Positions 13,469 through 31,598 of a stretch of 64,000 bases of DNA are shown one piece after another (the first letter of the stretch is position 1; each line of letters begins with the position of its first letter). Source of the stretch: Planctomycetota bacterium (lineage in GTDB: Bacteria > Planctomycetota > PLA2 > JAEUHO01); the NCBI GenBank assembly GCA_965222115.1, contig CBDCTJ010000007.1:2656001-2720000 (forward strand). The letters are read 5' to 3'. The translations under genes were made by a program, and so were the position numbers. A model generated the notes under the pieces. The model worked only from the letters and a program-made list of their open reading frames with translations, was not told the origin of the DNA and searched no databases.

Positions 13469-13845
13469 CCCGCCACCCGTCACCCGTTCCCCGAAACCCG
13501 TCACCCGGACTCAAGTGTGAGCGTCCGATAATCGATTCGTGTCGCGTTCAAAACGTGGACGTGGACGTGGACGTGGACGTGGACGTGGACGTGGACGTGG
13601 ACGTGGACGTGGACGTGGACGTGGACGTGGACGTGGACGTGGACGTGGACGTGGACGTGGACGTGGACGTGGACGTGGACGTGGACGTGGACGTGGACGT
13701 GGACGTGGACGTGGACGTGGACGTGGACGTGGACGTGGACGTGGACGTGGACGTCGAGAGCAGATGGGCGAAGCCCGTTTGCACGAGACCCTGAGCAAGC
13801 ACCAGAGGATCTGTGATCCGCGCGGTGCGCATCGAAGGGTGGACG
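13469..13845 (+). repeat. Module R copy 2 (full) containing (GTGGAC)33 at 13555-13752
   Basis: Five-heptamer ladder, CTCAAGTGTGAGCGTCC, perfect 198-bp hexamer array, GATGGGC-GAA-GCCCGTT hairpin, conserved 3' tail. Confidence 0.95.
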
Positions 13846-13858
13846 CCCTCGATGCCTA

Positions 13859-14551
13859 TCACGCACGGCGTGGCGGGCCGTCGAGGATGTCGGCGTGTGG
13901 CGCGTCTCTTATTGTCTTTCGTTCCGCTCCGCGTTCGCGGAGATGAAGAGTCAGGTCGACTACGATCTTCGCGATGACGAGAACAGCCAGGATGCCGATG
14001 GTGCTGTTGAAGAGCAAGACAACAAAGTTACCTAAAATAATGGCGAACTGCATGATAAAGATTCGCGTGTACGCCGCGGCCATGGGATCGAAGGATGCGT
14101 CCGCTGCCTGGACAACGTTCTTCTTAAAGTTCAAGGCATACGAAATGCCGTGGCTAACAAACATCGCGCCTATCACCAGAAGCCAGTGCGGTTCCAGTCT
14201 ACCAAGTGTATCGATCGTGTAGTTGAAGAACGAGTGGGACTTGGGTCGCGAAATCAGGATGCTGTTTGACCATGAAGGTCTCGTCAGTATCCACAGGAAC
14301 AATGCGTGTCCCACCATAAACCCACCGAAGTGCAGCGTGAAGAAGGACACGTCAAAGAACGCATTCCTTTTCCTCTTGAGTGAGAACAACTTCAGAATGG
14401 AGTAGAATCCGATGACGGCAGATTCGGCCCAGTATAGATAGAGCACCATGGCGAGGTCCCACCCCCCTGCCAGCACGCCGTAGAGTGGAATCAAGTTGAC
14501 GGCAATCAGTGTGAAGATTGCGAGTGGATGGGAGCGTGCAAATTGCGTCAT
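13859..14551 (-). CDS. Membrane protein, DUF6498-like
   Basis: NLIPLYGVLAGGW...LYWAESAVIG, FFTLHFGGF..GH and YTRIFIMQ pattern; multiple TM helices. Confidence 0.75.
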   Translation of the reverse strand: MTQFARSHPLAIFTLIAVNLIPLYGVLAGGWDLAMVLYLYWAESAVIGFYSILKLFSLKRKRNAFFDVSFFTLHFGGFMVGHALFLWILTRPSWSNSILISRPKSHSFFNYTIDTLGRLEPHWLLVIGAMFVSHGISYALNFKKNVVQAADASFDPMAAAYTRIFIMQFAIILGNFVVLLFNSTIGILAVLVIAKIVVDLTLHLRERGAERKTIRDAPHADILDGPPRRA

Positions 14552-14713
14552 GATCGCGAGACTCCTGAATCGGGAATGCATGTCAAGCGCAGTTCGAGTA
14601 TCGGGGGCATCGCATGGCGCAAAATTTCAGTTTCAGCATCCGAGGCGAATTTCTAGCCCCCTGCGGTGCGCTTCGGAAGGGACTCCGGTACGTGATTCGG
14701 TAAGCTCTCGACC

Positions 14714-15709
14714 ATGGCCAGCAGTTTCGGAAGCGTGTTCTGTTCGACGTATGCCCTCGCTACATTCGAGAGCGGGGGCTGGAGTCCATGGACGCTTGCG
14801 CCTGTGGCACCCATCTCGATTCATCCGGGGGCGCACGGGCTGCACTACGGAAGCAGTTGTTTCGAAGGGCTCAAGGCGTATCGCCGCGACGACGGACGAG
14901 TACACATCTTTCGCCTTGACCGGCATGTTGAACGCATGCAGGCGAGCGCAGAGGCTTTGCGGCTGCCCGTTCCCGATGCCTCGCAATTTCACGACATGAT
15001 CTATGCGTTGGTTGATCGGTGCCGCGATGAGGTTCCGGTCTATCCAGGCGCCCTCTACATTCGACCGATTCTCTTTGGCACGTTGGAGTCGGTTGGCGCG
15101 GCCGGATCCGCGAGCGACGAAGCGCAACTCGTTGTTTTGGTGTGTCCCGTGGGAGACTACTTTGAGGGCGGTATGCGACCGCTTCGTATAGCCACTGTCA
15201 CCGATCGTGCACGCGCCGCACCTGGATTCGGTTGCGTAAAGACGGGTTCGAACTATGCCGCGGCGCTGCGCCCTGTCCTCACCGCGAAGCGAGACCATGA
15301 CGCCGATCAAGTGTTGTTTTGTCCAGATGGCAACGTTCAGGAGACAGGCGCCGCCAACTTCATCGTGATTCACAACAAGACGGTGATTACCAAACCACTG
15401 GACGACACGATCTTGCACGGCGTCACCCGCGACTCCCTGCTGACGATTGCACCTTCACTTGGCTTCAATGTAGAAGAACGCGAGTTCTCCGTGGATGAGC
15501 TACTTACGTGGGCGCCGAACGCAGAAGCAGGTTTGTCCGGTACCGCGGCCGTACTTGCGCCGGTTGGCGTGCTCATTCACGAGGGCAAAGAGCACGTGGT
15601 GGGTGATGGGAGCATTGGTCCGAACGTCAGAAAGCTGCGTGAAGCATTGACCGCGATTCAATCCGGCGATGCCGAAGATGAGTACGGGTGGTTGCTGTCC
15701 GTGACGTAA
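14714..15709 (+). CDS. ilvE: Branched-chain amino acid aminotransferase (PLP class IV)
   Basis: LHYGSSCFEGLKAYR, LYIRP, KTGSNY, ETGAAN and ILHGVTRDS motifs. Confidence 0.93.
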   Translation: MASSFGSVFCSTYALATFESGGWSPWTLAPVAPISIHPGAHGLHYGSSCFEGLKAYRRDDGRVHIFRLDRHVERMQASAEALRLPVPDASQFHDMIYALVDRCRDEVPVYPGALYIRPILFGTLESVGAAGSASDEAQLVVLVCPVGDYFEGGMRPLRIATVTDRARAAPGFGCVKTGSNYAAALRPVLTAKRDHDADQVLFCPDGNVQETGAANFIVIHNKTVITKPLDDTILHGVTRDSLLTIAPSLGFNVEEREFSVDELLTWAPNAEAGLSGTAAVLAPVGVLIHEGKEHVVGDGSIGPNVRKLREALTAIQSGDAEDEYGWLLSVT

Positions 15710-15752
15710 CGCATGCATGTGCTACTCGACATATGTCCCGCGCTCATCGTTT

Positions 15753-15834
15753 CCCTTTTCCCGTTTCCCGTCACCCGGAATCCAGATTTGTGCCGGGTGC
15801 ATTTTCGCGCGCGGTGTGCATCGAAGGGTAGACG
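15753..15834 (+). repeat. Module R copy 3 (partial: heptamers plus 3' tail)
   Basis: CCCGTTT CCCGTCA CCCGGAA ... GCGCGGTGTGCATCGAAGGGTAGACG. Confidence 0.75.
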
Positions 15835-15835
15835 C

Positions 15836-16210
15836 TCATGGAACGTTGAATCGCCGCTGGAGGACGAACAACATCGCGGCGGTTCGCTCCAGCGTGTTCA
15901 TGACTCGCGAAACTTTGAGTTCACTCGAGAGACGGAGTAGGAGCGCGTGATGTAGAGCCGCGATGGCTTCGGTGCATTCGGCGTGTGCAATGTCGTAGGC
16001 CCTGCGCTTCTCGGCTGCCCGCCGTTTCGATAGGCCTTCGGCGACGTTTAGGGCAACGCTGGTGCTTGCGCGCCTGAGTTGATCGGCAAGTTTTGCGTTG
16101 CCTCGTGGCCACTCGGCGCAGATGGCGACGCACTCGACTGCCGCGGCCTGCGAAGCACGGTAGACGTCGAAGCGTTTGAGGTACTCGAGCGTTGAAGACG
16201 CGCTTGTCAT
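15836..16210 (-). CDS. Four-helix-bundle protein, subfamily B copy 1
   Basis: 124 aa; RFDVY...LADQLRRASTSVALNVAEG...YDIAHAECTE; GGAG SD 7 nt upstream. Confidence 0.9.
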   Translation of the reverse strand: MTSASSTLEYLKRFDVYRASQAAAVECVAICAEWPRGNAKLADQLRRASTSVALNVAEGLSKRRAAEKRRAYDIAHAECTEAIAALHHALLLRLSSELKVSRVMNTLERTAAMLFVLQRRFNVP

Positions 16211-16366
16211 GATGGAACTCCAGTTGAAGGGAACGCAAGCCGTTTGCTCGCGTGTGCCCTTCGCAAAAGAGCCGAAGGCGAAGGAGGGCACACGCGAGCG
16301 GGTCGTACAAACAGAGCCCGCGTGACAGCGACAACTCGTTCCCAAACTGGAGTTCCATCACAAGCG
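16201..16366 (-). promoter_or_regulatory. Long leader hairpin (type B) sequestering the SD and start codon
   Basis: 16201-16225 pairs with 16345-16366 with a 3-nt bulge at the start codon; inner stems GGGAACG/CGTTCCC and GCTCGCGTGTGCCCT/AGGGCACACGCGAGC. Confidence 0.82.
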
Positions 16367-16417
16367 GCGCCTGCGCGTACCGAACGCGCTATGGCAACCG
16401 GCGGTGCTGTCCAAGGC

Positions 16418-16657
16418 CCAGTCACCCTTCACCCGTTACCCGTTACCCGTAAACCGAATCCCAGACTCAAGGGTGAGCGTCGGATGGACGATTCGCGCCG
16501 TCTTTACGTGGACGTGGACGTGGACGTGGACGTGGACGTGGACGTGGACGTGGACGTGGACGTGGACGTGGACGTGGACGTGGACGTGGACGTGGACGTG
16601 GACGTGGACGTGGACGTGGACGTGGACGTGGACGTGGACGTGGACGTGGACGTGGAA
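16418..16657 (+). repeat. Module R copy 4 (5' half) with (GTGGAC)24 at 16508-16651
   Basis: Heptamer ladder, CTCAAGGGTGAGCGTCGG, GATTCGCGCC, perfect 144-bp array. Confidence 0.95.
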
Positions 16658-16673
16658 TCAGATTGGGTGCATC

Positions 16674-17474
16674 TTAGTCGTCGTCTTTCTTGGGTACGTC
16701 TTTCTCAATCCACGACGTAATCATGTACCGCACTTCGACCCATGAAAGCGTGATTGTGTACTCGCGCGTTAGATGCTCATAGGTTACGAGGTACTTTGCT
16801 TGTAGGGAGTCGTTTTCACCGGGCCCAAACGATGTGCGCATGAGATTCTTGAACGCGCCTTGTTTTCCATCGACGAGATCGATCTTGGTTGGCAGTGACT
16901 CACGCTCAATCATATCGCCCGATACGAACTTCGAGATGGTTTGAGGATTGCCTTGCGCGACCTGCTCAACGGCGCCGCGCATGGCGTCCTGTTCGAGCAG
17001 TTTCCGCTGTTCATCGCGGGCAGTGATTACGTGCTCAGCCTGTGCGGCGCGAGGGGTTAACGTGTAACGTGCGATTAGCCAGCGGCCGCCTGTGGCTGGA
17101 TTTCGCCTAAGATGAAACGTGGAATCAAGGATGACGTGTTCGCAACTCAGCGTAGCAAGTACCGTCTTTCGCGCCTTGCCTCCTGTTTCCGACACCTCCT
17201 CGATTCGAATGTCGTTTACCGCTCTCACGTTTCCGAATTGGGCTTGATACTGTTTCCGCTGTTCGCCGAATGCATGGGGGTGCCAATACACAAGAAGGGG
17301 CTTAGCGACATGTGGAAGTGTTTCGATGGAGTCATGCACCGCGTTGGACAACAGCGCCTTTGCGAATTCGGTAACGATGACCTCATGGGCGTCCTTCGTG
17401 GTTAGCGAGCTGATGGCGGCGAATAGCACACACGCCAACAACGTAAGCCCAAGCGCCTTGAATACGGGACCCAC
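16674..17474 (-). CDS. Hypothetical exported or membrane-anchored protein
   Basis: 266-aa ORF with an N-terminal hydrophobic helix; directly downstream of the dehydrogenase gene. Confidence 0.7.
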   Translation of the reverse strand: MGPVFKALGLTLLACVLFAAISSLTTKDAHEVIVTEFAKALLSNAVHDSIETLPHVAKPLLVYWHPHAFGEQRKQYQAQFGNVRAVNDIRIEEVSETGGKARKTVLATLSCEHVILDSTFHLRRNPATGGRWLIARYTLTPRAAQAEHVITARDEQRKLLEQDAMRGAVEQVAQGNPQTISKFVSGDMIERESLPTKIDLVDGKQGAFKNLMRTSFGPGENDSLQAKYLVTYEHLTREYTITLSWVEVRYMITSWIEKDVPKKDDD

Positions 17475-17485
17475 GGCGCGGCCTC

Positions 17486-18517
17486 CTACGAAGATGCCTT
17501 CGGCTGCTTCTTCACTTCTTCAACGATCGCGCGCGTGATGTCATCGGTGGTGCCATTCCCGCCTAGGTCAGGCGTCAATGCTTCCTTGCGATGGCTCGTT
17601 ACGGCGGCGACACCACGGCGAATGCGATGGTACGCATCTACATCACCCAAGTGATGACACATCATGGCAGCACTGAGAATCATTGCGATTGGATTGGCGA
17701 CACCTTTGCCCGCAATGTCTGGGGCGGTGCCGTGGATCGCCTCAAACACGGCGCACTCTGCCCCGTAGTTTCCGCCCGGAGCCAAACCGAGGCCGCCAAT
17801 CAGGCCGGCCGCCAGGTCGCTCACAATGTCCCCGTATAGATTTTCAAGAAGAAGAACGTCGTAACGGCCGGGATTGGTCACTAGGTGCATGCACAACGCG
17901 TCAACGAGGACATCGGTAAACTCGACGGTGCCCCTAAACGGTTCCGATGATTCTTCTGCACAGCGCAAGAACAGGCCATCCGCCTTCTTCATGATGTTTG
18001 CCTTGTGAACGGCAGTGACCTTCTTACGCTCCCAGCGCTTGGCGTAGGAAAACGCGAACTCGGCGATGCGACGACTGGCGCGATCTGTAATAACCTTTAG
18101 TGAGGTGACGACGCCCGGTGCAACCTCGTTCTCCATGCCGGCATAAAGGTCTTCCGTGTTCTCACGAACGATGACCAAATCGACGGGACCGTGCGACGTC
18201 TCGAGACCGGGAACCGTTTTCACCGGACGAACATTGGCGAACAGTTCGAGCGCTTTCCGCAGTCGAACGTTGGCAGATACGTGGCCACCGCCACTTGGCG
18301 TGGTCGTGGGTCCCTTGAGCGCTACCCCAATGTCCCGAACGAGATCCACCGTCTTTGTAGGCATGGCGTCGCCGTGCTTCTCAAGGGCGCACAGGCCGAG
18401 ATCAGCCTCGATCCAGTCAAAGTTCATCTCAGCAGCATCAAGCACGCGACGCGCTGATGCAGCCACCTCCGGGCCGATACCGTCGCCGGGTAGATAGACA
18501 ACACGTGTACCGCTCAT
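17486..18517 (-). CDS. Isocitrate/isopropylmalate dehydrogenase family protein (NAD-dependent IDH-like)
   Basis: PGDGIGPEV, IVRENTEDLY, VHKANIMK, NLYGDIVSDL and FEAIHGTAPDIAGKG motifs. Confidence 0.92.
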   Translation of the reverse strand: MSGTRVVYLPGDGIGPEVAASARRVLDAAEMNFDWIEADLGLCALEKHGDAMPTKTVDLVRDIGVALKGPTTTPSGGGHVSANVRLRKALELFANVRPVKTVPGLETSHGPVDLVIVRENTEDLYAGMENEVAPGVVTSLKVITDRASRRIAEFAFSYAKRWERKKVTAVHKANIMKKADGLFLRCAEESSEPFRGTVEFTDVLVDALCMHLVTNPGRYDVLLLENLYGDIVSDLAAGLIGGLGLAPGGNYGAECAVFEAIHGTAPDIAGKGVANPIAMILSAAMMCHHLGDVDAYHRIRRGVAAVTSHRKEALTPDLGGNGTTDDITRAIVEEVKKQPKASS

Positions 18518-18655
18518 GCGGGGTATCCTCCGAACACACCGCGTGGGGCGCGCGAAAAAAGGCTTTGTGAACGACGCAAAGTATCGAGCATTTCGCGGCG
18601 CGTAGCGAATTGTCCAGGCGCCCAATGCGCCCATTTCTGATGGAGACCGCCGATC

Positions 18656-20524
18656 ATGGAGCGCCGGCCCGGAGCTTTCCGACGCGTGCTGTCGGCGTTG
18701 CTGGGACAGGTCGTTCCCGCGTCACTCGGTCTCGTCGCTGGCTCGTTGGCACTAACCTTCGTCCCACTCAACAACCACGGCATTGGCGCCTGCATTGCGA
18801 CGTTTCTGCTGGTTTGGTTCTCCGCTGCCTGGGGCCTTGCACGCGTCCGCGAAAACAAACAATGGCGGCGTCTCTACCGTCTCGCCGTTTTCGGCCACGT
18901 ACTGTTTTGGTCCTACGTAGGCATCGCTGGATCTTCACTTCGTGCGCCCGGCGTGCCCCAAGTGCGACCCGGGACGCACGATGGCGCTGACATGGGTCAG
19001 ATTCGCGCGGGCGTCGGTGAAGCGGCGTTTGTCATTCCCAGGGATGTGACGCTTGGTGGTTGGGGTATGCGACCCCGTCGCTATCGTGTTCCCGCCTTTG
19101 GAGGTATAGGGATTCTGGGGCGCCTAAGTCAAGACTTCATGGCCGGGACGGGTGGCGACGGCATGCCGCGCAAGCCGCTCTTCTTTTCGGCCGCGAAAGA
19201 GGATGCGCCCCAGACGTTGGAACGCGTTGGCGCGCGCGCCATTTCGATTTCGTGTGGAGACGGCGTGCCAATGACGTGGGTGCGTCTAGATTTGGTCACG
19301 GTGTCGCCGGGACTCGTTGCAGACATTCTCACACGCGTCAAGAAGTCTCACCCGCGTGTGACGCCTGATCGTCTTGTGGTGGCCGCATCACATACGCACA
19401 GTTGTATGGCCGGGTATAGCGAGCAACGCCTCTCCGCGCTTGCGGGTACGGACCATCTTCGTTCAGACGTTCGAAAGGCAGTCGCCGACGCGGCTCTTCA
19501 GGCCATTTCTATCGCCTGGTCAACCCGCTCGGCTGCTCAGCTAGCACCGTTTATGACGCATGATCGTTTGGCAGATGGACGTAGCGCGCTTGCCCGCAAT
19601 CGGCGTAAGAAGAATGACACCGACATTGACGATCGCGTCTTTGGGATACGTGTCGACTCGCAGGCTAGGGAGACGATTGCGATTCTGCTGAACTACGCCG
19701 TTCATCCAACGGTCCTAAAACGACATACATGTTCCCTTCACCGAGACTTGGTGGGGTCCGTAGAGGAGGCGGTTAGTAAGACGATTCCCAGTCGACCGAT
19801 GACACTCTTCTTGAATGGCGCGCAGGGCGATATTGGACCTGCACGCATCGAGGGGTATTCGGATGAGTTTCGTGCCGACGCGCTTGCCGAACGATTTGCC
19901 CGCGTCCTAAAGGACACGGTCACTTCCGCGGCGCCATACACCCATGGACGTATGCACACCGCGTTTGCAACGTGCGATCCAGGGTCCCCCTTTGCGATTG
20001 TTGCTGGTGAAGACCGCGCGGGTTGGGCGGAGCGATTTCGGTCGGGATACGTCGAGGGATCCACGAGTCAGTCGATCTGTGACGTGCTTTCGTATCCTGG
20101 CAACGCGCTTCTTTGGAGTATTGGGCTATCTGAAGCGCGCGTTGCATTCGATTTTGGTGGAGGCGGTGCAACGATGGTCTCACTGGATCCATCGATGGAA
20201 CAAACCGAGCTGCAGGTCGGCGCGTGGATACTTGAGCTGGGTGATTCGACCAATGTGAGGTTTCGTACAGTAGGTGTGTGGCAGCCCGGCGAAGCAACAC
20301 AGGCGCTGGGCAAGTCATGGCGCGCCATGGCCGCGTCACGTGGCTACGACCATTGCATGATTGCCGGACTGGCTGGGGGTGCGTGTGCCTACTTGACCAC
20401 GCCAGAAGAGTATGACGCCGGGGGCTACGAGGCACTTGCCACCCTCTATGGCCCCCGCGGCGGCGAGTTGATCGGTGCGGCGTTTGAGGGTGCGTTGGAT
20501 GCGTGTGATCCGAAGGGTGAATAG
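18656..20524 (+). CDS. Neutral/alkaline ceramidase-like hydrolase with N-terminal TM helices
   Basis: ASHTHS, NYAVHPT, FLNGAQGD and YLTTPEEYDAGGYE motifs; three N-terminal hydrophobic segments. Confidence 0.8.
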   Translation: MERRPGAFRRVLSALLGQVVPASLGLVAGSLALTFVPLNNHGIGACIATFLLVWFSAAWGLARVRENKQWRRLYRLAVFGHVLFWSYVGIAGSSLRAPGVPQVRPGTHDGADMGQIRAGVGEAAFVIPRDVTLGGWGMRPRRYRVPAFGGIGILGRLSQDFMAGTGGDGMPRKPLFFSAAKEDAPQTLERVGARAISISCGDGVPMTWVRLDLVTVSPGLVADILTRVKKSHPRVTPDRLVVAASHTHSCMAGYSEQRLSALAGTDHLRSDVRKAVADAALQAISIAWSTRSAAQLAPFMTHDRLADGRSALARNRRKKNDTDIDDRVFGIRVDSQARETIAILLNYAVHPTVLKRHTCSLHRDLVGSVEEAVSKTIPSRPMTLFLNGAQGDIGPARIEGYSDEFRADALAERFARVLKDTVTSAAPYTHGRMHTAFATCDPGSPFAIVAGEDRAGWAERFRSGYVEGSTSQSICDVLSYPGNALLWSIGLSEARVAFDFGGGGATMVSLDPSMEQTELQVGAWILELGDSTNVRFRTVGVWQPGEATQALGKSWRAMAASRGYDHCMIAGLAGGACAYLTTPEEYDAGGYEALATLYGPRGGELIGAAFEGALDACDPKGE

Positions 20525-20593
20525 GTGGCGGGAAGGAAGTAGATCCTGCGAAACAGGCCGGATGGAGTCTGAAGGATTCGTGCGTATTTCCTT

Positions 20594-20764
20594 ACCGTTA
20601 CCCGAAACCCGAAACCCGGGCTCAAGTGTGAGCGCTCAATGATCGATTCACGCCGGGTCGTCGAGAGTGAATGGCTTTGCCATTTGCACGAAGACCCTGA
20701 GTAAGCACCAGCGGATCTCTGATCCGCGCAGTGCGCATCAAAGGGTGCGCATCGAAGGGTGGAC
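20594..20764 (+). repeat. Module R copy 5 (full; no internal GTGGAC)
   Basis: CCCGAAA ladder, CTCAAGTGTGAGC, ATGGC-TTT-GCCAT hairpin, GCGGATC-TCT-GATCCGC, duplicated GTGCGCATC.AAGGG tail. Confidence 0.9.
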
Positions 20765-20807: not shown

Positions 20808-20965
20808 ACCGAACTGTTTGCTGTGTGACGTGAACGCGCACTGGGCAACACCCTTTGAGAAGTGCTACGTGCATGCCCCATTCGCCATGAGGGCGAGGGC
20901 ACGCACTCGCATTCCCGCGGGTGTTTCCTCGTGGAGTTTCTCGTATGTCACACAGCAAACAGTTC
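20808..20965 (+). promoter_or_regulatory. Long leader hairpin (type A), second copy
   Basis: 20811-20829 is the perfect reverse complement of 20947-20965; same nested stems as 12879-13041. Confidence 0.82.
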
Positions 20966-21331
20966 TCGATTACTTCCACGGCAGGTCGGCTTGAACGTTT
21001 CGACGTGTATCGAATCGCACGCCGTGCCGCGGCCAGCATTCACCAGCTTTGTGGATCCCTGCCGCGAGGCAACGCCGAGCTTGCAAGCCAAGCTCGACGA
21101 GCCTCTACAGCCGTCGTCCTCAACATCGCCGAGGGCATCGGGCGCGCTGGCGCAGGCGCCAAGCACCGTTCGTTCTCCATCGCTCGCGGCGAGTGCGTCG
21201 AGGCCACCGCGGCACTCGACCTCATGCACGCGATGGGAATCCTTACAGGCGCCCACGCCGCGCCAACGCTTCGCGACCTTGACCGCGTTCGCGCAATGTT
21301 GAACGCGCTCATCCGGCGCTGGAGGGAATGA
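20945..21331 (+). CDS. Four-helix-bundle protein, subfamily A copy 2
   Basis: 128 aa; 8 substitutions relative to 13016-13402 by eye. Confidence 0.9.
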   Translation: MSHSKQFSITSTAGRLERFDVYRIARRAAASIHQLCGSLPRGNAELASQARRASTAVVLNIAEGIGRAGAGAKHRSFSIARGECVEATAALDLMHAMGILTGAHAAPTLRDLDRVRAMLNALIRRWRE

Positions 21332-21339: not shown

Positions 21340-21572
21340 CCCGTTACCCGAGACCCGTTACCCGGACTCAAGTGTGAGCCTCTGATGATCGATTCGCGCC
21401 GTTCGTGGACGTGGACGTGGACGTGGACGTGGACGTGGACGTGGACGTGGACGTGGACGTGGACGTGGACGTGGACGTGGACGTGGACGTGGACGTGGAC
21501 GTGGACGTGGACGAAACCCTGAGTAAGCACCAACGGATCTCTGATCCGCGCGGTGCGCACCGAACGGTGGAC
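21340..21572 (+). repeat. Module R copy 6 with (GTGGAC)18 at 21405-21512
   Basis: Heptamer ladder, CTCAAGTGTGAGC, perfect 108-bp array, CCCTGAGTAAGCACC...GTGGAC tail; first 3' hairpin deleted. Confidence 0.95.
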
Positions 21573-24467: not shown

Positions 24468-24842
24468 TCAGGGACCGCCGAATTTGTGTTGAAGCACGAA
24501 CAACATGGCGGCGGCGCGTTCTAGGGTGTTCATCGCCTGCGACGTTGCGCGCTCGCTTGCGATTCCAAGCAGCTGGGCGTGATGCAGCGCAGCGATCGCT
24601 TCGGTGCACTCGGCGTGGGCGATGTCGTATGCCTTGCGCTTCTCGGCGGGGCGGCGCTTCGCCAGCCCCTCTGCGACGTTGAGTGCAACGCTGGTACTAG
24701 CGCGCCGGAGTTGATCGGCGAGTTTTGCGTGGCCTCGAGGCCATGTTGCGCAGAGCGCGACGCACTCGACTGCTGCTGCCTGCGAAGCACGGTAGACATC
24801 GAAGCGTTTGAGGTAATGGAGCGTGGAAGACGCGCTTGTCAT
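24468..24842 (-). CDS. Four-helix-bundle protein, subfamily B copy 2
   Basis: 124 aa; LADQLRRASTSVALNVAEG; antisense to the flanking carA and purA. Confidence 0.9.
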   Translation of the reverse strand: MTSASSTLHYLKRFDVYRASQAAAVECVALCATWPRGHAKLADQLRRASTSVALNVAEGLAKRRPAEKRKAYDIAHAECTEAIAALHHAQLLGIASERATSQAMNTLERAAAMLFVLQHKFGGP

Positions 24843-25000
24843 GATGGAACTCCAGCGTGAAGGGAACGCAAGCCGTTTGCTCGCGTGTGCCCTTCACAAA
24901 AGAGCCGAAGGCGAAGGAGGGCACACGCGAGCGGGTCGTACAAAAAGTCCCCTCGTGACAGCGACAACTCGTTCTCAAGCTGGAGTTCCATCACAAGCGC
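24832..25000 (-). promoter_or_regulatory. Long leader hairpin (type B), second copy
   Basis: GCGCTTGT-cat-GATGGAACTCCAGC pairs with GCTGGAGTTCCATC-ACAAGCGC. Confidence 0.82.
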
Positions 25001-25041
25001 AGCCCGCGCGTAACGGTCGCGCATGCCTTGCCCGCGGCCCG

Positions 25042-25220
25042 CCCGGAATCCGTCACCCGTATCCCGTCATCCGGACTCAAATGTGGACATCCGATGATCG
25101 ATTCACGCCGGTTCGTGGACGTGGACGTGGAGAGCAGATGGGCGAAGCCCATTTGCGCGAAGACCCTGAGTAAGCACCAGCGGATCTCTGATCCGCGCAG
25201 TGCGCATCGAAGGGTGGACG
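25042..25220 (+). repeat. Module R copy 8 (full; (GTGGAC)2)
   Basis: Heptamers, GGACTCAAATGTG, GATGATCGATTCACGCC, GCAGATGGGC-GAA-GCCCATTTGC, conserved tail. Confidence 0.92.
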
Positions 25221-25250
25221 CAAATTGGTGCCGGGCGCGAACGTGCGTGC

Positions 25251-25351
25251 CCCGCGACCCGTTCCCCCGTACCCCGAGCCCCGATTCCCGTCACCCATCA
25301 CTCGTTACCCGACACCCGGTCGCCAGTGTGAGCGTTCAATGAACGACTTGC
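25251..25351 (+). repeat. Module R copy 9 (5' fragment, degenerate)
   Basis: About nine degenerate CCCGNNN units, then CAGTGTGAGCGTTCAATGAACGA. Confidence 0.75.
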
Positions 25352-25454
25352 AGTGCAAATTGCCACCGGGAGCGAACTCCGCGAATTGCGCTCATTTTGA
25401 GTCGTTCCCCGTCATCTGCCCGGGTAGAATCCGCTTTTACACGGAGAATGCGCC

Positions 25455-26777
25455 ATGAGCGTAACCTGTGTCTTTGGTATGCACTGGGGCGACGAGGGTA
25501 AGGGGCGCATTGTAGACCTGCTCGCCGCGCAGTCCGATGTGGTTGTCCGTTTTCAGGGTGGCGCAAACGCGGGCCACACCGTCATTGTGGACGACCAAAA
25601 ATATGTGCTTCACCTCCTGCCCTCGGGCGTGATTCAACCCAGCACGATCAATGTGATCGGAAACGGCGTCGTGGTGGATCCCGAAGTCGTGCTGGCCGAA
25701 ATCGACGAGCTTGTGGGCCGTGGGATCAAGCTCGATGGGCGTCTATTCATCTCGGACCGCGCCCACGTTGTGCTGCCGCATCACAAGTTGCTTGACCGTG
25801 CGTTTGAGGCGTTGCGTGGCGATGGCGCGCTGGGCACGACCTTTCGCGGCATCGGACCTGCATATTCGGACAAAGCGAGCCGAGACGGCGTGCGGATCGT
25901 TGACTTGCTTGAGACCAAACGTTTTGCTCCGGCGCTCACCATGGCGAAGCGCTACGGCGATCCGATTCTTGAGAAGGTGGGCATGGACCCCATCGACGTG
26001 GACGCGTCGGCAAAACAACTGTCCGCGTGGGGGAAACGATTGCGCCCCTTTGTTCGCGACACGGTTTCGTTTCTTCTTGATCAGCAAGAGAAGGGCGTGC
26101 GCATCTTGCTCGAAGGTGCGCAAGGGTACGCACTCGACATCGATCACGGCACTTATCCGTTTGTTACGTCAAGTAGTACGTGCCCGGCGGGTGCGGCTGC
26201 AGGCACGGGGTTGCCGCCGCGCGCGATCGACGAAATGGTTGGTGTTGTTAAGGCCTATAGCACGCGCGTGGGCGCTGGACCATTTCCCACGGCAGCGGAA
26301 CCGTCGGTCGCGGAACATCTTGGCAAGCACGGCGCCGAATTTGGCGCTACGACCGGGCGACCACGGGGCTGCGGCTGGTTCGATGGCGTGATCGCGAAGC
26401 GTGCCATTGAAACGCAGGGCGTCGATTCTGTTTGCCTCATGAAGATGGACGTGCTCTCGGGACTCACCGAAATCAAGGTGTGCACGGCCTACACATACCA
26501 AGGAGAAACGCTTACTGCGCCGCCGGCTTGGATTGGTGACTGGGACGACCTGAAACCGGTCTATACCACCTATGACGGTTGGAACGAGGACATTTCTGGC
26601 GTTCGGCACTTCATCGACTTGCCGGTCGCGGCGCAACATTACGTACATGCGATTGAATCGTTCCTCAACACGCCCATATCCATTGTGAGCGTGGGGCCGG
26701 AACGCGATCAGTTTATTGACATGACGCGTCCGCATCAATCTGTAAAAAACGTGGGTTCCAAAGTACAGGCCGGATAG
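25455..26777 (+). CDS. purA: Adenylosuccinate synthase
   Basis: WGDEGKG, GGANAGHT, DIDHGTYPFVTSS and EFGATTGRPR motifs. Confidence 0.98.
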   Translation: MSVTCVFGMHWGDEGKGRIVDLLAAQSDVVVRFQGGANAGHTVIVDDQKYVLHLLPSGVIQPSTINVIGNGVVVDPEVVLAEIDELVGRGIKLDGRLFISDRAHVVLPHHKLLDRAFEALRGDGALGTTFRGIGPAYSDKASRDGVRIVDLLETKRFAPALTMAKRYGDPILEKVGMDPIDVDASAKQLSAWGKRLRPFVRDTVSFLLDQQEKGVRILLEGAQGYALDIDHGTYPFVTSSSTCPAGAAAGTGLPPRAIDEMVGVVKAYSTRVGAGPFPTAAEPSVAEHLGKHGAEFGATTGRPRGCGWFDGVIAKRAIETQGVDSVCLMKMDVLSGLTEIKVCTAYTYQGETLTAPPAWIGDWDDLKPVYTTYDGWNEDISGVRHFIDLPVAAQHYVHAIESFLNTPISIVSVGPERDQFIDMTRPHQSVKNVGSKVQAG

Positions 26778-26806
26778 CGGCCTGGCACGAAAGAGGCACG
26801 TCGCGC

Positions 26807-27715
26807 ATGACCAGCGATTCCACGTCTACGTCAAAGAGCAGTCGCGATGTGCGCGTGCGACTCGTCGTAGCACCCATCGTCTTGGCCGTCGTATTGGGCA
26901 CGATCTGGCTCGCTGAACACTTCGAGTCGCGCCTTCCACTTCATCTCTTGATCATGTTTTTTGCCATTGGTTCAGGCATTGAGTTTGTGCGCATGCTTGC
27001 GCCGTCAGGGACAAGCGAGCGCCTCAAGGGCGGAGCGTTGGCGTGGATCACGTGCGGACTGCTTGCGGGGGTGGGTTTGATCGAGCTTCTGCGGCCCACG
27101 TCAAGTTACGTCGCCGATGCGGGTCTGCGCATGGAACTGCGCGTACTCATCGTCATCGCATTCACCTGGTGCATCTTGGTGGGCAAGTACTTCTTGGATA
27201 CACGTCACAAATCCACGTCCGAAATTGGCCGCGTCTTTCTGCCCGTGCTCTACATCGGCCTACCGCTCTCGCTAGCATGTGAAATTTGTGCTGGCCCTCT
27301 TGCGGCGCGTCGGGTCATGTGGGTGGTCTTGGTCGCCAAAGCGTGTGACATCGGTGGCTGGGTATTTGGCAAGCTGTTTGGCAAGCACAAAATGGTGCCC
27401 ACCGTGTCGCCAGGAAAGTCGTGGGAAGGCACCACGGGGGGCATTGTCCTGAGCATCGCCGCGGCGGTATTCCTTCCCGACCTATTCGGATTGCCTGAGT
27501 CCGAGTGGTCCGTAGCGATGCGCGTGGGATTCGGATTCATGGTGGGGGCGGCCACCATCTTGGTGGGCGTCACGCAAAGCGGATGGAAACGCCGTGCAGG
27601 CGTCAAGGACTCAAGCGCCCTGATTCCGGAGATGGGCGGCATCCTCGACATGACCGATTCGCTGCTCTTTGCGGTTCCGGTGGCGTATCTGTGGTATCGA
27701 TTTGTGGTGGCGTAG
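26807..27715 (+). CDS. cdsA: Phosphatidate cytidylyltransferase
   Basis: SPGKSWEG and KRRAGVKDS..IPEMGGILD motifs; polytopic membrane protein. Confidence 0.9.
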   Translation: MTSDSTSTSKSSRDVRVRLVVAPIVLAVVLGTIWLAEHFESRLPLHLLIMFFAIGSGIEFVRMLAPSGTSERLKGGALAWITCGLLAGVGLIELLRPTSSYVADAGLRMELRVLIVIAFTWCILVGKYFLDTRHKSTSEIGRVFLPVLYIGLPLSLACEICAGPLAARRVMWVVLVAKACDIGGWVFGKLFGKHKMVPTVSPGKSWEGTTGGIVLSIAAAVFLPDLFGLPESEWSVAMRVGFGFMVGAATILVGVTQSGWKRRAGVKDSSALIPEMGGILDMTDSLLFAVPVAYLWYRFVVA

Positions 27716-27778
27716 TTGAACGCGTTAGAGTGGCCGGCCCTTTCGAAGACATATCATCAAAAGCACCACGAGTTCCAC

Positions 27779-28846
27779 ATGCCCCAAGTCCGCATCGCCA
27801 ACACCGGAGAAGCCGCGCAGCGCGTGTTGTTTGGTCCTATGGACAAACATCTGCGCCGGATTCGTGAGCATTTCGGCGTGCGCATAAGCGCTCGCAACGA
27901 AGTACTCACGCTTGAGGGCGACGATGTGGACGCGGTTGAAGATGTCGCGCGACGATTGAAGCGCGTGTTGGGTCGCATGAATGGGCGCACCGAGCCACCT
28001 GAGAACGAAGTCGAAGAGATTTTGCTTGGATCCGGAAAGCCATCGTCGAGTCGCAAGATTCGAACCTCAAACGGACCACGCACGGGCACAGGCCAAGCGC
28101 CTCACCGCATGTCGAAGACCACGGCGCGTGATCACGGCGGTTCGATTGCACCCAAACCAAAGACGCCGGGCCAAGAACGCTACATCGATGCCATCCGAGA
28201 GCACGACGTCGTGTTTGCCTTGGGGCCGGCGGGCACGGGCAAAACGTTTTTGGCAGTCGTAGAAGCCGTGCGTTGCCTACGAGACGGCACGGCCCGCAAG
28301 ATTATCCTCACGCGTCCCGCGGTGGAGGCAGGTGAGAAGCTAGGATTTTTGCCGGGTGATTTTCAAGCGAAGATCAATCCCTATTTACGACCGCTCTATG
28401 ATGCGCTGGGCGAGTTGCTAACGCACGCCGAAGTACAACGCTACTTCGAGGCCGACGTGATTGAAATTGTGCCGTTGGCCTATATGCGCGGTCGCACCTT
28501 GAAAGAGGCATTCATCATTCTTGACGAGGCGCAGAATACGACTCCCGCGCAGATGAAGATGTTTCTCACACGTATGGGCGAACGATCCAAAGTCGTCGTA
28601 AATGGCGACGCATCCCAGGTGGACTTGCCCGGTGGAACTACATCATCGGGGCTGAGTCAAAGCGTTCGCATTCTTGAGGATGTTCCCGGAATCGCCGTGG
28701 TTCGCTTCGCACCAACCGACATATTGCGTCATCCGTTGGTTCAACGCATTGTGGATGCCTATGACCGCGAAGACGATCGACGAGCAGCGAATGAGTCATC
28801 AAGCGACGCAGACGATGTGAGCGACGACGAATCGCAAGGCGCATGA
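27779..28846 (+). CDS. phoH: PhoH family ATPase
   Basis: [31 protein letters not shown] and DEAQN motifs. Confidence 0.95.
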
Positions 28847-29310
28847 GTGGCGGTTCCCCAACGGCTTCCGTATCGATTGTCGATTGCGTAGAGATTCCCG
28901 GAGGTAAGTCGGTTTTCGAGCGACGCATGCAAGCTGTGGCACACATGGCGGCTGCCTATGCCGGGTGTTCGTTGGAGCTCGTCTATGTGGTGCTTGGGGA
29001 CGACGAGATGCGCGCGCAGAACAAAGCTGCGCTCAACCATGACTATCCAACCGATGTGCTCTCCTTTGACATGGGTCACACACACGACATACGTCACGGC
29101 GAGATCCTTGTGTCGGCCGACACCGCCGTTCGTGAAGCAGCATCTCGCGCACACAGTGGGGCAGATGAGTTGTGCCTGTATGCAGTTCACGGCACACTCC
29201 ACTTCGTGGGGTACGACGATCACGATCCCGCCGATCGAAGACGAATGCGTGCTGCCGAGAGGCGATGGCTACGCCGATTGGGTTGCAATGCAATCTACGG
29301 ACGTCGGTAA
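28843..29310 (+). CDS. ybeY: rRNA maturation RNase YbeY
   Basis: PTDVLSF and [12 protein letters not shown] motifs; follows phoH. Confidence 0.92.
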
Positions 29311-29395
29311 TCGCCCCCGCCCTACTCACGCCCCCCGCGAATGATTGCCCTTTACGCCTCTCTCTCCGAGGATAGGGCGTCCTTCGGAGATCGTC

Positions 29396-30589
29396 ATGTC
29401 GAGTCAGCAGCACCTTGTCGAACGCGTCTTAGAAATGGGCGTGGCCACCCGTGAGCAGGTGGATGAGGCCCTTGAAATTTGCAGTCGGCTCAGTGAAATG
29501 GGCATGAAGTCGCGCTCCGTGATCGACGTTCTTTTCGAAAAGGAATACATCGACAAGGAAGTTTTCGATCGGCTCCAGCGCGAAGCCAAGCGTGTGGAGG
29601 GCAAAGAGCAAATTGCCGGCTATCGCCTCCTCGATCGTCTCGGTGAGGGCGCGATGGGTGCCGTCTATCGTGCAAAGCAGCTTTCGCTGGATAGAGAAGT
29701 GGCTGTCAAGGTTCTCGACCCCGAACTGGCGAGCAATGACGAGTACGTCAAGCGTTTCATGAGCGAGGCGCGCGCCGTGGCCCGACTCAATCACACAAAC
29801 ATTATCAGCGGCATCGATGTGGGCGACGCAGACGGCATCAAATATCTCGTTATGGAGTATGCCGACGGAATGACGGTGAGTTCCCTGCTTGAACGCGGCG
29901 GTGCGCTCGATGAAGAGCGCGCGTTGTGGGTTGTGCTCCAAATGGCTCGTGCCTTAGATCACGCGCATCGCAACAACTTGGTTCACCGCGACGTCAAACC
30001 CGACAACATCATCATCACGAAAGATGGCGTCGCGAAGCTGTGTGACTTGGGTCTTGCCCGATTGGAAAGCGCGGAGGGTGAGGCGCCCCAACGTATGGGC
30101 ACCCCCGCCTACATTTCGCCCGAGCAGGCTCGCGGCGATGTAACCGTGGACGAACGTACCGATCTCTATAGCTTGGGCGCCACGTGGTTTCACATGGTAA
30201 CCGGTCGCCCGCCCTACACCGGCAACGACGCAGGTGCTGTACTCGCCAAACACCTCACGGAACCCGTGCCCCACGTGCGAACAATCGATCCCACGATTAG
30301 CGAGATGAGCGATGAACTGGTCTTTGGTCTGCTCCAAAAGCGCCGCGGCGACCGAACCGAGTCCGCCAGCGTTTTGATTCCGCAGTTGGAATCCGCCATT
30401 CGCGAATTGCAGTTGGCTCGTGGTGCCAGCCCCTCCAGTGCGATGGGCGTAGCAGCGAAAGCAAAACCAGCCGCCGGTTCCATCAAGGTTCCTGTGCGTC
30501 CCGCAGCCCCGGAACCGCGCTCCGCGGATGTTCCCAGTCGTCCAAGTGCTCCGATCGCTCCAAGACCAAGGCGTCGGCGAAGGCGTTAG
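29396..30589 (+). CDS. Hanks-type Ser/Thr protein kinase
   Basis: LGEGAMGAVY, VAVK, HRDVKPDN, DLGLA and GTPAYISPEQ motifs; Pro/Arg-rich tail. Confidence 0.95.
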   Translation: MSSQQHLVERVLEMGVATREQVDEALEICSRLSEMGMKSRSVIDVLFEKEYIDKEVFDRLQREAKRVEGKEQIAGYRLLDRLGEGAMGAVYRAKQLSLDREVAVKVLDPELASNDEYVKRFMSEARAVARLNHTNIISGIDVGDADGIKYLVMEYADGMTVSSLLERGGALDEERALWVVLQMARALDHAHRNNLVHRDVKPDNIIITKDGVAKLCDLGLARLESAEGEAPQRMGTPAYISPEQARGDVTVDERTDLYSLGATWFHMVTGRPPYTGNDAGAVLAKHLTEPVPHVRTIDPTISEMSDELVFGLLQKRRGDRTESASVLIPQLESAIRELQLARGASPSSAMGVAAKAKPAAGSIKVPVRPAAPEPRSADVPSRPSAPIAPRPRRRRRR

Positions 30590-30645
30590 GGTTCGCCTCC
30601 TAGCGGACAGTTTTCTGCACGTGGTTCCCGACTCTGTTTTCAGCG

Positions 30646-30759
30646 CCCGTATGCCGTTACCCGTTACCCGAGACCCGATACCCGATACCCGATACCCGAT
30701 ACCCGGTCTCAAGTGTGAGCATCCGATGATCGATTCGAGGCACGTTTAAGACGTGGACG
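30646..30759 (+). repeat. Module R copy 10 (5' half; 1 GTGGAC)
   Basis: Eight heptamers including (CCCGATA)4, CTCAAGTGTGAGCATCCGATGATCGATTCG, ends in GTGGACG. Confidence 0.9.
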
Positions 30760-30760
30760 A

Positions 30761-31135
30761 TCACGGTTCGTCGAATCGGCGCTGAAGTACGAACAACATG
30801 GCGGCGGATCGCTCCAAGCTGTTCATGACGAGTGAGATTGCGGCTTCGCTGGCGAGACCAAGCAATAGCGCGTGGTGTAGAGCGGCAATGGCCTCGGTGC
30901 ATTCGGCGTGTGCGATGTCGTAGGCCCTGCGCTTTTCGGCTGGCCGCCGTTTCGATAGGCCTTCAGCGACGTTTAGCGCAACGCTGGTACTTGCGCGCCT
31001 GAGTTGATCGGCGAGCTTTGCGTGGCCGCGAGGCCATGCGGCGCAGATTGCGACGCACTCGATCGCCGCGGCTTGCGAAGTACGGTAGACATCGAAGCGT
31101 TTGAGGTACTCGAGCGTAGAAGAGGCGCTTGTCAT
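30761..31135 (-). CDS. Four-helix-bundle protein, subfamily B copy 3
   Basis: 124 aa; same signature as the other B copies. Confidence 0.9.
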   Translation of the reverse strand: MTSASSTLEYLKRFDVYRTSQAAAIECVAICAAWPRGHAKLADQLRRASTSVALNVAEGLSKRRPAEKRRAYDIAHAECTEAIAALHHALLLGLASEAAISLVMNSLERSAAMLFVLQRRFDEP

Positions 31136-31291
31136 GATGGAACTCCAGATGAAGGGAACGCAAGCAGTTTGCTCGCGTGTGCCCTTCGCAAAAAAGCCGA
31201 AGGCGAAGGAGGGCACACGCGAGCGGGTCGTACAAAAAGAACCCGCGTGAAAACGACAACTCGTTCCCAAGCTGGAGTTCCATCACAAGCG
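31126..31291 (-). promoter_or_regulatory. Long leader hairpin (type B), third copy
   Basis: CGCTTGT-cat-GATGGAACTCCAG pairs with CTGGAGTTCCATC-ACAAGCG; inner stem conserved. Confidence 0.82.
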
Positions 31292-31342
31292 GCGCCCGCG
31301 CGTACCGTTTGCGCTGGAGCTACCGGCGGTGCTGTCCAAAGT

Positions 31343-31598
31343 CCCGTCACCCGTTACCCGTCACCCGTTACCCGTCACCCGTTCCCCGTGACCCGTACTC
31401 AAGGGCGGGCATCCGATGAACGATTTGCGCCGTCTTAACGTGGACGTGGACGTGGACGTGGACGTGGACGTGGACGTGGACGTGGACGTGGACGTGGACG
31501 TGGACGTGGACGTGGACGTGGACGTGGACGTGGACGTGGACGTGGACGTGGACGTGGACGTGGACGTGGACGTGGACGTGGACGTGGACGTGGACGTG
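31343..31598 (+). repeat. Module R copy 11 (5' half) with (GTGGAC)26 at 31440-31595
   Basis: Seven CCCGT(C/T)A-type heptamers, CTCAAGGGCGGGCATCCGATGAACGATTTGCGCC, perfect 156-bp array. Confidence 0.95.

What the first reader, a model, noticed from the sequence alone, without database searches (positions are those of the whole stretch)
13555..31595. Perfect (GTGGAC)n arrays expand at one fixed slot, and only in the right-hand module
Uninterrupted arrays of 33 (13555-13752), 24 (16508-16651), 18 (21405-21512), 2 (25115-25126) and 26 (31440-31595) units sit at the same slot of the R copy to the right of each gene. Left-hand and solo copies carry 0-1 unit at that slot. The flanks have diverged but I see no mismatch inside any array, implying recent or continuing generation. 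Slippage can explain the purity but not obviously the left/right asymmetry. Speculation: templated, telomerase-like repeat addition or iterative insertion at GTGGAC during cassette movement. The module also ends in GTGGACG and has a complementary CGTCC at its 5' end.
Basis: partly seen in the sequence, partly recalled or inferred. Interest (0 to 1): 0.74.

Follow-up and report, generated by a model that had tools for sequence, protein, structure and literature searches.

The report
Expanding hexamer repeats beside four-helix-bundle genes
The perfect GTGGAC runs are real, fast-changing microsatellites sitting in the repeat modules that bracket a family of small four-helix-bundle genes in a planctomycete, but they are not confined to one side of the genes and nothing points to a telomerase-like enzyme making them.

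Summary
All five (GTGGAC)n arrays are at the stated coordinates and are perfect. They lie at one slot of a ~100-200-bp module: a CCCGNNN heptamer tract, a 39-nt core A, the slot, and an optional hairpin part B. This module flanks all 18 PF05635 four-helix-bundle genes of the genome.

The right-only rule holds in the window but not genome-wide. Arrays of 5 or more units occur at 10 of 13 right, 2 of 4 middle, 6 of 14 left and 5 of 15 solo modules.

The gene copies are old (dS about 0.6, dN/dS about 0.1). Yet 24 of 26 arrays of 4 or more copies show no mismatch by Tandem Repeats Finder, so the arrays turn over continuously. Both strands fold into slipped hairpins.

All 7 reverse-transcriptase hits are group II intron or CRISPR types.

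The best reading is slipped-strand microsatellite expansion of the hexamer "arm word" of these cassettes. The same hexamer arrays flank PF05635 genes in other bacteria, including Myxococcota (10 of 199 loci).

This scan had already noted repeat-armed PF05635 cassettes on other DNA. Array lengths could not be checked with reads.

The parts
13555..13752 (+). (GTGGAC)33, slot of the module downstream of fhb1 copy 1
16508..16651 (+). (GTGGAC)24 plus GTGGA, slot of the module upstream of the minus-strand fhb2 copy; abuts the 3' end of the next host ORF (16674-17474, -)
21405..21512 (+). (GTGGAC)18, module downstream of fhb1 copy 2, followed by a shortened part B
25115..25126 (+). (GTGGAC)2 plus GTGGA, module upstream of minus-strand fhb2 copy 2, followed by part B
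31440..31595 (+). (GTGGAC)26, module upstream of minus-strand fhb2 copy 3; followed directly by a further solo module (31609-31674, 0 units)
12693..12704 (+). 2-unit GTGGAC run at the second GTGGAC site (end of part B) of the left module of cassette 1
12541..12710 (+). Left module of cassette 1: heptamer tract, core A (12558-12596), 1 unit at the slot, part B (12621-12692)
13469..13852 (+). Right module of cassette 1: heptamer tract 13469-13507, core A 13505-13539, array, part B 13764-13839
13016..13402 (+). fhb1 copy (PF05635 / TIGR02436 four-helix-bundle protein, 128 codons with the ATG)
15836..16210 (-). fhb2 copy (PF05635; about 43% identical to fhb1)
20945..21331 (+). fhb1 copy 2; left module 20600-20761 has 0 units and part B
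24468..24842 (-). fhb2 copy 2; left module 24385-24468 is truncated
30761..31135 (-). fhb2 copy 3; left module 30654-30758 has 1 unit that abuts the stop codon
12882..13036 (+). Structured fhb1 leader closed by a 19-nt stem whose 3' arm covers the start of the ORF
16210..16360 (-). Structured fhb2 leader closed by a 16-nt perfect stem next to the start codon
36890..36953 (+). Solo module (heptamers plus core A, 1 unit)

Best explanation
The arrays are hypermutable microsatellites. A GTGGAC seed, followed by a near-copy (GTCGAG or GTGGAG), sits between core A and part B of a repeat module. That module brackets every four-helix-bundle (PF05635) gene of this planctomycete. The seed expands and contracts by slipped-strand mispairing during replication. 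Recombination between copies is a possible further contributor (inferred, not tested).

Slippage is favoured because each unit junction makes the palindrome ACGT, so either single strand folds into register-independent hairpins. A 6-nt loop should also be poorly seen by mismatch repair; this step rests on general knowledge of mismatch repair and is recalled, not tested.

Fast gain and loss of units purges point mutations. This keeps the arrays pure while the flanks and genes drift. Array length at any copy is largely a matter of chance, so the right-hand bias in this window is a local and partly inherited pattern, not a mechanism.

The hexamer tract itself is not an accident. It is the ACGT-core 'arm word' that accompanies PF05635 cassettes in several lineages.

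Shown: anatomy, census, purity against age, hairpin potential, and absence of a dedicated enzyme nearby. Inferred: slippage as the process, and its current activity.
For:: the arrays are perfect. They are the only long pure microsatellites in 4.55 Mb: 26 arrays of 4 or more copies, 24 of them at 100% matches.

the same slot holds 0 to 33 units across 42 core-A copies, in right, middle, left and solo positions.

core A is 79% and part B 78% identical between copies. The paralogs have dS 0.58 and 0.68 and dN/dS 0.08 and 0.11. The copies are therefore old and the arrays must turn over.

(GTGGAC)12 folds at -14.0 kcal/mol (z -4.9) and its complement at -11.2 kcal/mol (z -5.4), as 4-bp ACGT blocks.

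MutS and MutL are present, and one search shows no long arrays of shorter units.

(GTGGAC)6+ arrays are widespread in high-GC bacteria, reaching up to 21 units in the 199 loci held. In locus L119 one arm has 15 units where its inverted partner has 4+3, an unmatched one-arm expansion of the kind slippage gives.

no RT, Y1 transposase or integrase recurs next to the modules.
Against: No read-level or strain-level length variation could be measured. The four public runs that hold this DNA are short-read contigs at depth about 3-6 that break at the repeats, and no same-genus genome is held. Instability is therefore inferred from paralogs only.

Slippage alone does not explain three things. Arrays are longer next to genes (median 6, n = 27) than in solo modules (median 1, n = 15; Mann-Whitney p = 0.0085, copies not independent). 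All 8 arrays of 17 or more units are gene-adjacent. The right array is longer in 8 of 10 single cassettes.

The recurrence of short-word arrays beside PF05635 genes in other lineages hints at selection or at a cassette-linked process.

Array lengths come from one assembly of unknown read type.
Confidence: 0.68

Rival explanations
1. The arrays are selected functional elements of the cassette. They could be iteron-like binding arrays or 'arms' read by the four-helix-bundle protein or by a host factor. Or they could be a tunable spacer that sets expression of the adjacent fhb genes, in the way of a contingency locus. Slippage would still be the generator, but length and presence would be under selection.
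For: All 18 of 18 PF05635 genes in the genome have at least one module beside them. In the four fhb2-fhb1 pairs the module is the divergent intergenic region, with the heptamer tract towards the fhb2 leader and the hexamer array about 45 nt from the fhb1 leader. Arrays are longer beside genes than in solo modules. Relatives with multi-copy PF05635 genes also have 6-7-nt tandem repeats beside them. 10 of 199 outside loci with (GTGGAC)6+ have a Pfam-confirmed PF05635 gene 40-270 nt away. Known precedent: 7-bp repeats in the hmwA promoters of H. influenzae, 9-28 copies, with more repeats giving less transcript (PMC2424069, passages read).
Against: There is no consistent position relative to the gene. 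Long arrays lie downstream of fhb1, upstream of fhb2, abutting the fhb2 stop codon, or with no gene at all. The left (upstream) arrays of the four single fhb1 cassettes are 1, 0, 17 and 0 units, so fhb1 does not need an array. No promoter-like site was found in or next to the modules, with a sigma-70 consensus only. No RNA data exist. 189 of 199 outside arrays have no PF05635 gene, and 83 of 199 lie in long open frames.
Confidence: 0.25
2. Units are added by a templated, telomerase-like or retroelement-type reverse transcriptase.
For: The arrays are pure, unidirectional and often terminal in the module. PF05635 proteins are relatives of the Avd accessory protein of diversity-generating retroelements (recalled, not tested here).
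Against: There are 7 RT hits in the genome. Six are group II intron RTs; for the two loci scanned, one of each copy type, intron RNA domains were found by Rfam. The seventh is a Cas6-RT-Cas1 fusion. Only one intron copy lies near a module (RT match about 1.3 kb from it). No gene other than fhb recurs within 3.5 kb of the 23 module loci. The arrays are internal to a chromosome, not at DNA ends.
Confidence: 0.03
3. Each unit is a footprint or target duplication left by repeated insertion and excision of the cassette at GTGGAC.
For: The array lies at the module edge where unique DNA, part B or the gene begins. Two cassette loci end a few to about 40 nt from the 3' ends of tRNA-Leu and tmRNA, which are classic insertion sites. 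20 of 23 module loci are co-oriented with replication, as seen for single-strand transposons.
Against: dS of about 0.6 between copies argues against frequent recent movement. 33 error-free cycles at one site is implausible. The two Y1 transposase hits are more than 0.8 Mb away, and no recombinase recurs at the modules. Core A does not fold better than shuffles (z +1.08). Solo and both-side arrays need no such process.
Confidence: 0.04
4. The array lengths or their purity are assembly or polishing artefacts.
For: The lengths could not be checked with reads. The assembly method is unknown.
Against: There are 26 arrays of many different lengths at defined slots, with sharp, in-phase boundaries. 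Independent assemblies of other organisms hold the same kind of array. Short-read contigs of four runs break at the array in locus L023, as expected if the repeat is real.
Confidence: 0.05

Closest known systems
Bacterial simple-sequence-repeat (contingency-type) loci changed by slipped-strand mispairing, e.g. the 7-bp repeats in the hmw1A/hmw2A promoters of nontypeable Haemophilus influenzae (PMC2424069, passages read)
   Same: Long, pure, non-coding arrays of a 6-7-nt unit next to genes. Copy number differs widely between homologous sites (9-28 there, 0-33 here).
   Different: Here the same array recurs at about 26 paralogous slots of a dispersed module in an environmental planctomycete. Its position relative to the gene is not fixed. 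No effect on expression and no population variation has been shown.
ORF-bearing intervening sequences of 23S rRNA carrying an S23p / PF05635 gene (Coxiella burnetii IVS, PMC4990558, abstract read)
   Same: The same protein family, carried as a small, apparently selfish unit with structured flanks.
   Different: These cassettes lie between protein genes, or next to tRNA and tmRNA genes, not in rRNA. The flanking modules are direct, not inverted, so they cannot form the RNase III stem. Each gene instead has its own 16-19-bp leader stem.
Repeat-armed PF05635 cassettes noted earlier in this scan on other genomes (e1-1105045, e1-730272, e1-2038898 and others; AI notes)
   Same: A four-helix-bundle gene bracketed by runs of a short word. 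A G3/C3-rich heptamer tract is present. I found the inverted-arm form with GTGGAC/GTCCAC arms in outside loci L076 and L119.
   Different: In this genome the runs on both sides are in the same orientation. There are two words per module (a degenerate heptamer and a perfect hexamer). The hexamer has expanded to 33 perfect units. The same hexamer word serves two separate 4HB clades, which argues against a strict word-to-subfamily rule.
REP / BIME / REPIN-type extragenic repeats
   Same: Part B is a hairpin-rich, roughly 77-nt extragenic repeat (z -3.3). Of 42 copies, 15 follow a core A in a module; several of the others form inverted pairs.
   Different: No RAYT-type gene lies beside any copy. 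The hexamer slot lies outside part B.

Membership tests
Slipped-strand microsatellite (SSR / VNTR) | Head-to-tail perfect copies of a short unit | tested here: met
   100% matches and no indels in 24 of 26 arrays of 4 or more copies.
Slipped-strand microsatellite (SSR / VNTR) | Copy number differs between homologous sites while the flanks stay alignable | tested here: met
   0-33 units at the same slot of 42 paralogous modules. Orthologous sites could not be compared (0 of 40 relatives hold the module).
Slipped-strand microsatellite (SSR / VNTR) | Length heterogeneity within a population or between strains | not testable with these tools
   only short-read contigs at depth 3-6, broken at the repeats.
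Contingency locus (phase or level variation of a gene) | Repeat number changes expression of the adjacent gene | not testable with these tools
   No RNA run is listed. The position relative to the genes is inconsistent.
PF05635 / TIGR02436 four-helix-bundle gene cassette | The gene belongs to PF05635 | tested here: met
   18 of 18 copies are over the cut-off. PDB relative 2gsc.
PF05635 / TIGR02436 four-helix-bundle gene cassette | The gene is bracketed by runs of a short repeated word | tested here: met
   heptamer tract and hexamer slot on both sides in most copies. All 18 have at least one module.
IVS-type (stem-gene-stem) cassette | The two flanking runs are reverse complements that enclose the gene in a long stem | tested here: not met
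   all arrays and heptamer tracts of a locus are on one strand. The only inverted repeats found are the leader stems. The feature is met in outside loci L076 and L119.
IVS-type (stem-gene-stem) cassette | Inserted in a helix of 23S rRNA | tested here: not met
   the neighbours are protein genes, tRNA-Leu and tmRNA.
Telomerase-like / RT-templated repeat addition | A dedicated RT with a template RNA carrying the repeat complement, associated with the arrays | tested here: not met
   6 group II intron RTs and 1 Cas6-RT-Cas1 fusion. None recurs at the modules.
IS200/IS605- or REP/RAYT-type single-strand elements | A Y1 (HUH) transposase encoded in or beside the copies | tested here: not met
   2 hits at C7 1.07 and 1.41 Mb, neither beside a module.
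IS200/IS605- or REP/RAYT-type single-strand elements | Orientation tied to the direction of replication | tested here: met
   38 of 42 modules and 20 of 23 loci are co-oriented with the G-rich (leading) strand. Symmetric inversions around the terminus would give the same pattern.

The most novel reading that the evidence does not exclude
The hexamer arrays are not passive. ACGT-core hexamer runs, with GTGGAC as the expanding variant, are the recognition 'word' of a cassette system built around PF05635 four-helix-bundle proteins and shared between Planctomycetota and Myxococcota. New units would be produced by a cassette-linked process acting on one DNA strand during replication. That would account for the leading-strand orientation, the clustering around the terminus, the longer arrays beside genes, and the perfect purity despite old copies.
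Probability: 0.12. Interest if true: 0.8.

Novelty: new variant of a known kind. Interest (0 to 1): 0.45.

Why it matters
Long perfect microsatellites are rare in bacteria outside host-adapted pathogens. A survey of 117,861 genomes found bacterial genomes not enriched in short tandem repeats (PMC12699852, abstract and passages read).

Here one hexamer has expanded at about 26 paralogous sites of a free-living planctomycete, and nowhere else in the genome. Every site belongs to the repeat modules that package the very large PF05635 family, whose function is unknown.

This gives a natural series of 0 to 33 units for testing two questions: whether these proteins read their flanking words, and whether array length tunes the genes.

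There is no side-specific rule and no sign of a telomerase-like activity.

Tried and rejected
Reads. One search for runs listed 4 holders from one study, all kept as short-read contigs. No RNA holder was listed. I then laid them on locus L023, a cassette with 2- and 5-unit arrays. The contigs have depth 3-6 and stop at the repeats. The few indels seen belong to a paralogous copy. No length information was gained.

Relatives. (GTGGAC)4 was found in 0 of 40 relatives. The module DNA gave only two marginal short hits. No orthologous comparison was possible.

Rfam on 12000-32000 at E up to 1. The only hits were a sub-threshold Acido-Lenti-1 hairpin (25 bits against a gathering score of 37) and a chance RsmV hit. 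Weinberg 2010 (PMC2864571, Table 1 passage read) gives no function for Acido-Lenti-1.

Sigma-70 and terminator consensus scan of 12400-16800. Nothing was found in the modules, and counts were below the shuffle means.

Hairpin in core A. It folds no better than shuffles (z +1.08). The G-rich heptamer strand shows no duplex structure (z +0.70). G-quadruplex potential was not computed.

Recurrent neighbour genes within 3.5 kb of the 23 module loci. Only the 4HB gene recurs; the other clusters are overlapping frames or the same DNA counted twice.

Word-to-subfamily link. In a tree of 52 4HB proteins, 9 of the 10 GTGGAC-linked outside proteins fall in one weakly supported clade (79/98), apart from the fhb1+fhb2 clade (99/97). 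The bootstrap had not settled and long branches are present.

Literature. Searches for 'GTGGAC' with tandem repeat or hexanucleotide, and for intervening sequence protein with four helix bundle and 23S rRNA, found no description of such arrays beside these genes. Supplements were not consulted.
Full report
**Observation**

Tandem Repeats Finder and an exact search confirm five arrays of GTGGAC on the + strand at the stated coordinates. They have 33, 24, 18, 2 (plus a partial unit) and 26 units, with 100% matches and no indels. The 12-mer occurs 99 times in the window against 0.04 expected. A further 2-unit run at 12693-12704 lies at a second GTGGAC site. The window is C7:2656001-2720000 of a 4.55-Mb, 7-contig genome. 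Earlier notes of this scan place the genome in the Planctomycetota.

**Anatomy**

Each array sits at one slot of a composite module. The module has four parts:
- a tract of 2-8 imperfect CCCGNNN heptamers;
- a 39-nt core A;
- the slot, whose ancestral state is one GTGGAC followed by a near-copy;
- in 15 of 42 copies, a roughly 77-nt part B.

Part B folds into two strong hairpins (-21.3 kcal/mol, z -3.3). It belongs to a wider extragenic repeat family with 42 copies on four contigs (C1, C3, C5 and C7).

The modules flank two paralogous four-helix-bundle genes, fhb1 (8 copies) and fhb2 (10 copies). These are all 18 PF05635 / TIGR02436 genes of the genome.

In module orientation a gene always lies between the hexamer end of one module and the heptamer start of the next. 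fhb1 is on the module strand and fhb2 on the opposite strand. Four loci carry an fhb2-fhb1 divergent pair with one module between the genes.

So 'right-hand' in the window means downstream of fhb1 but upstream of fhb2. All runs at a locus are direct, not inverted.

**Census**

The genome holds 41 runs of 2 or more units. Of these, 37 lie on C7 (35 of them between 2.27 and 2.94 Mb), three on C3 and one on C1. Tandem Repeats Finder lists 26 hexamer arrays of 4 or more copies. The exact-run count also gives 26 runs of 4 or more units (301 units, 1,806 bp).

By Tandem Repeats Finder, 24 of the 26 are 100% pure and the other two are 93% and 97%. No other unit forms a long pure array anywhere in the genome.

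Arrays of 5 or more units, by position:

| Position | Arrays of 5+ units |
|---|---|
| Right | 10 of 13 |
| Middle | 2 of 4 |
| Left | 6 of 14 |
| Solo | 5 of 15 |

The left-hand arrays of 5 or more units have 17, 18, 9, 7, 6 and 5 units; the solo ones have 13, 10, 6, 5 and 5.

In the 10 single-gene cassettes the right array is longer in 8 and the left in 2 (p = 0.11). The window contributes 5 of those 8.

Arrays beside genes are longer (median 6, n = 27) than solo ones (median 1, n = 15; p = 0.0085). The copies are not independent, and solo cores are also more degenerate.

**Place and polarity**

GC skew puts the origin near 0.6 Mb and the terminus near 2.75-2.80 Mb of C7. Forty of the 42 core-A copies lie within 660 kb (14.5% of the genome) around that terminus.

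38 of 42 copies, and 20 of 23 loci, have GTGGAC on the G-rich (leading) strand (p = 5.7e-8 and 4.9e-4). This fits a strand-specific process. It equally fits local duplication followed by symmetric inversions across the terminus.

**Age against purity**

- The paralogs are 84-86% identical in DNA.
- dS is 0.58 (fhb1) and 0.68 (fhb2).
- dN/dS is 0.08 (fhb1) and 0.11 (fhb2).
- Core A is 79% and part B 78% identical between copies.

The cassettes are therefore old and the genes are under purifying selection. Yet the arrays carry essentially no substitutions.

**Mechanism**

The unit junction creates ACGT every 6 nt. Twelve units of either strand fold into stacked 4-bp blocks: -14.0 kcal/mol (z -4.9) and -11.2 kcal/mol (z -5.4), with 0 of 200 shuffles folding as well. 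Such register-free hairpins are the classic intermediates of slippage (established knowledge of repeat instability, recalled).

MutS and MutL are present, and no shorter-unit arrays have grown. This fits the known poor repair of loops longer than about 4 nt (recalled). I infer slipped-strand mispairing, perhaps aided by recombination between arrays.

Two long arrays in direct orientation would also be the longest perfect homology between the two sides of a cassette. Cassettes with one long and one short array should therefore survive longer. This is an inference. It would explain 'one long, one short' but not which side is long.

**Alternatives tested**

- Reverse transcriptase: there are 7 hits. 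Six are group II intron RTs; the two loci scanned, one of each copy type, also show the intron RNA domains by Rfam. One is a Cas6-RT-Cas1 fusion. Only one intron lies near a module.
- Y1 transposase: 2 hits, both far from any module.
- Tyrosine recombinases: 7 hits, one of them 1.4 kb from one module.
- Recurrent neighbours: nothing but fhb recurs within 3.5 kb of the modules.

**Outside this genome**

The module and the array were not found in 40 relatives; no same-genus genome is held. However, four relatives with multi-copy PF05635 genes (18, 5, 5 and 2 copies) also have 6-7-nt tandem repeats beside those genes. One of them has a divergent gene pair with a repeat-rich spacer containing GTGAAC-type hexamers.

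These include Myxococcota, Streptomyces and Acidimicrobiia. Of the 199 loci held:
- 83 have the array in a long open frame, often (Ser-Thr)n;
- 16 have inverted arrays;
- 10 have a Pfam-confirmed PF05635 gene 40-270 nt from the array, and in none is that gene farther away in the 2-kb flanks.

In locus L119 the two arms are inverted runs of ACGT-core hexamers. GTGGAC has expanded to 15 units on one arm against 4+3 on the other.

In a rough tree, 9 of these 10 proteins form their own clade, apart from fhb1+fhb2.

The hexamer tract is thus a recurrent companion of this gene family. This agrees with earlier notes of this scan on repeat-armed PF05635 cassettes. It differs from those notes in two respects: the arms here are direct, and one word serves two clades.

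**What remains open**

Array lengths and their population variation could not be checked. No RNA data exist. Whether array length matters to the genes, and why arrays beside genes are longer, is unknown.

**Verdict**

The asymmetry rule and the telomerase-like idea are not supported. The arrays are best read as slippage-driven expansions of the hexamer arm word of four-helix-bundle gene cassettes. That makes them a new variant of known kinds (SSR loci and IVS-type cassettes), of moderate interest.

Noticed in passing
window 12882-13036 (+) and 16210-16360 (-): Both fhb gene types have a roughly 150-nt leader closed by a 16-19-bp stem that covers the ribosome-binding and start-codon region. The consensus folds are -87 and -63 kcal/mol. 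The leaders are far better conserved than synonymous sites of the genes (dS about 0.6), with 2-3 compensatory pairs. This looks like a cis-acting RNA, possibly a processing or autoregulatory element.
   Followed up: partly
L056 2080-2164 (tRNA-Leu, -) and L052 921-1278 (tmRNA, +): Two cassette loci end next to the 3' ends of structured RNA genes. The 18-unit array at C7:2316281-2316388 stops about 6 nt from tRNA-Leu(taa). The 6-unit array at C7:2846579-2846614 lies about 40 nt from the tmRNA 3' end.
   Followed up: partly
genome: C1 521058/521489, C3 314028/314187, C7 2420968/2421127, C7 2815152/2815310: The gene-free subfamily of part B is a dispersed hairpin repeat that often occurs as inverted pairs about 160-430 nt apart (REPIN-like). 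No Y1 transposase gene lies beside any copy.
   Followed up: partly
window 12737-12782 (-): A sub-threshold match to the Acido-Lenti-1 RNA motif (25 bits, gathering score 37). It lies in an extra roughly 170-nt insert found only in the left flank of cassette 1.
   Followed up: no
window 12171-12496 (+), inside ORF 11116-12495: A 138-nt tandem repeat (2.4 copies, 77% matches) encodes lysine- and arginine-rich 46-residue repeats at the C-terminus of a 459-aa protein with no Pfam family.
   Followed up: no
L007 364-3354 (-), genome C7:262294 region: A 996-aa Cas6-RT-Cas1 fusion protein, of the kind that acquires CRISPR spacers from RNA.
   Followed up: no
genome contig C6 (48,116 bases): Its GC content is 0.397 against 0.55-0.59 for the other six contigs. 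It may be a foreign replicon, a phage or a binning contaminant.
   Followed up: no
relative G026, loci L042, L065, L067, L069 and others: This genome of the same order has 18 PF05635 copies, several within about 1 kb of contig ends. They are flanked by modules of (GGTTCG)12-19, (CCCGAC)6-9, (GGGGATC)7 and GTGAAC-type hexamers. This suggests that such cassettes break short-read assemblies.
   Followed up: partly
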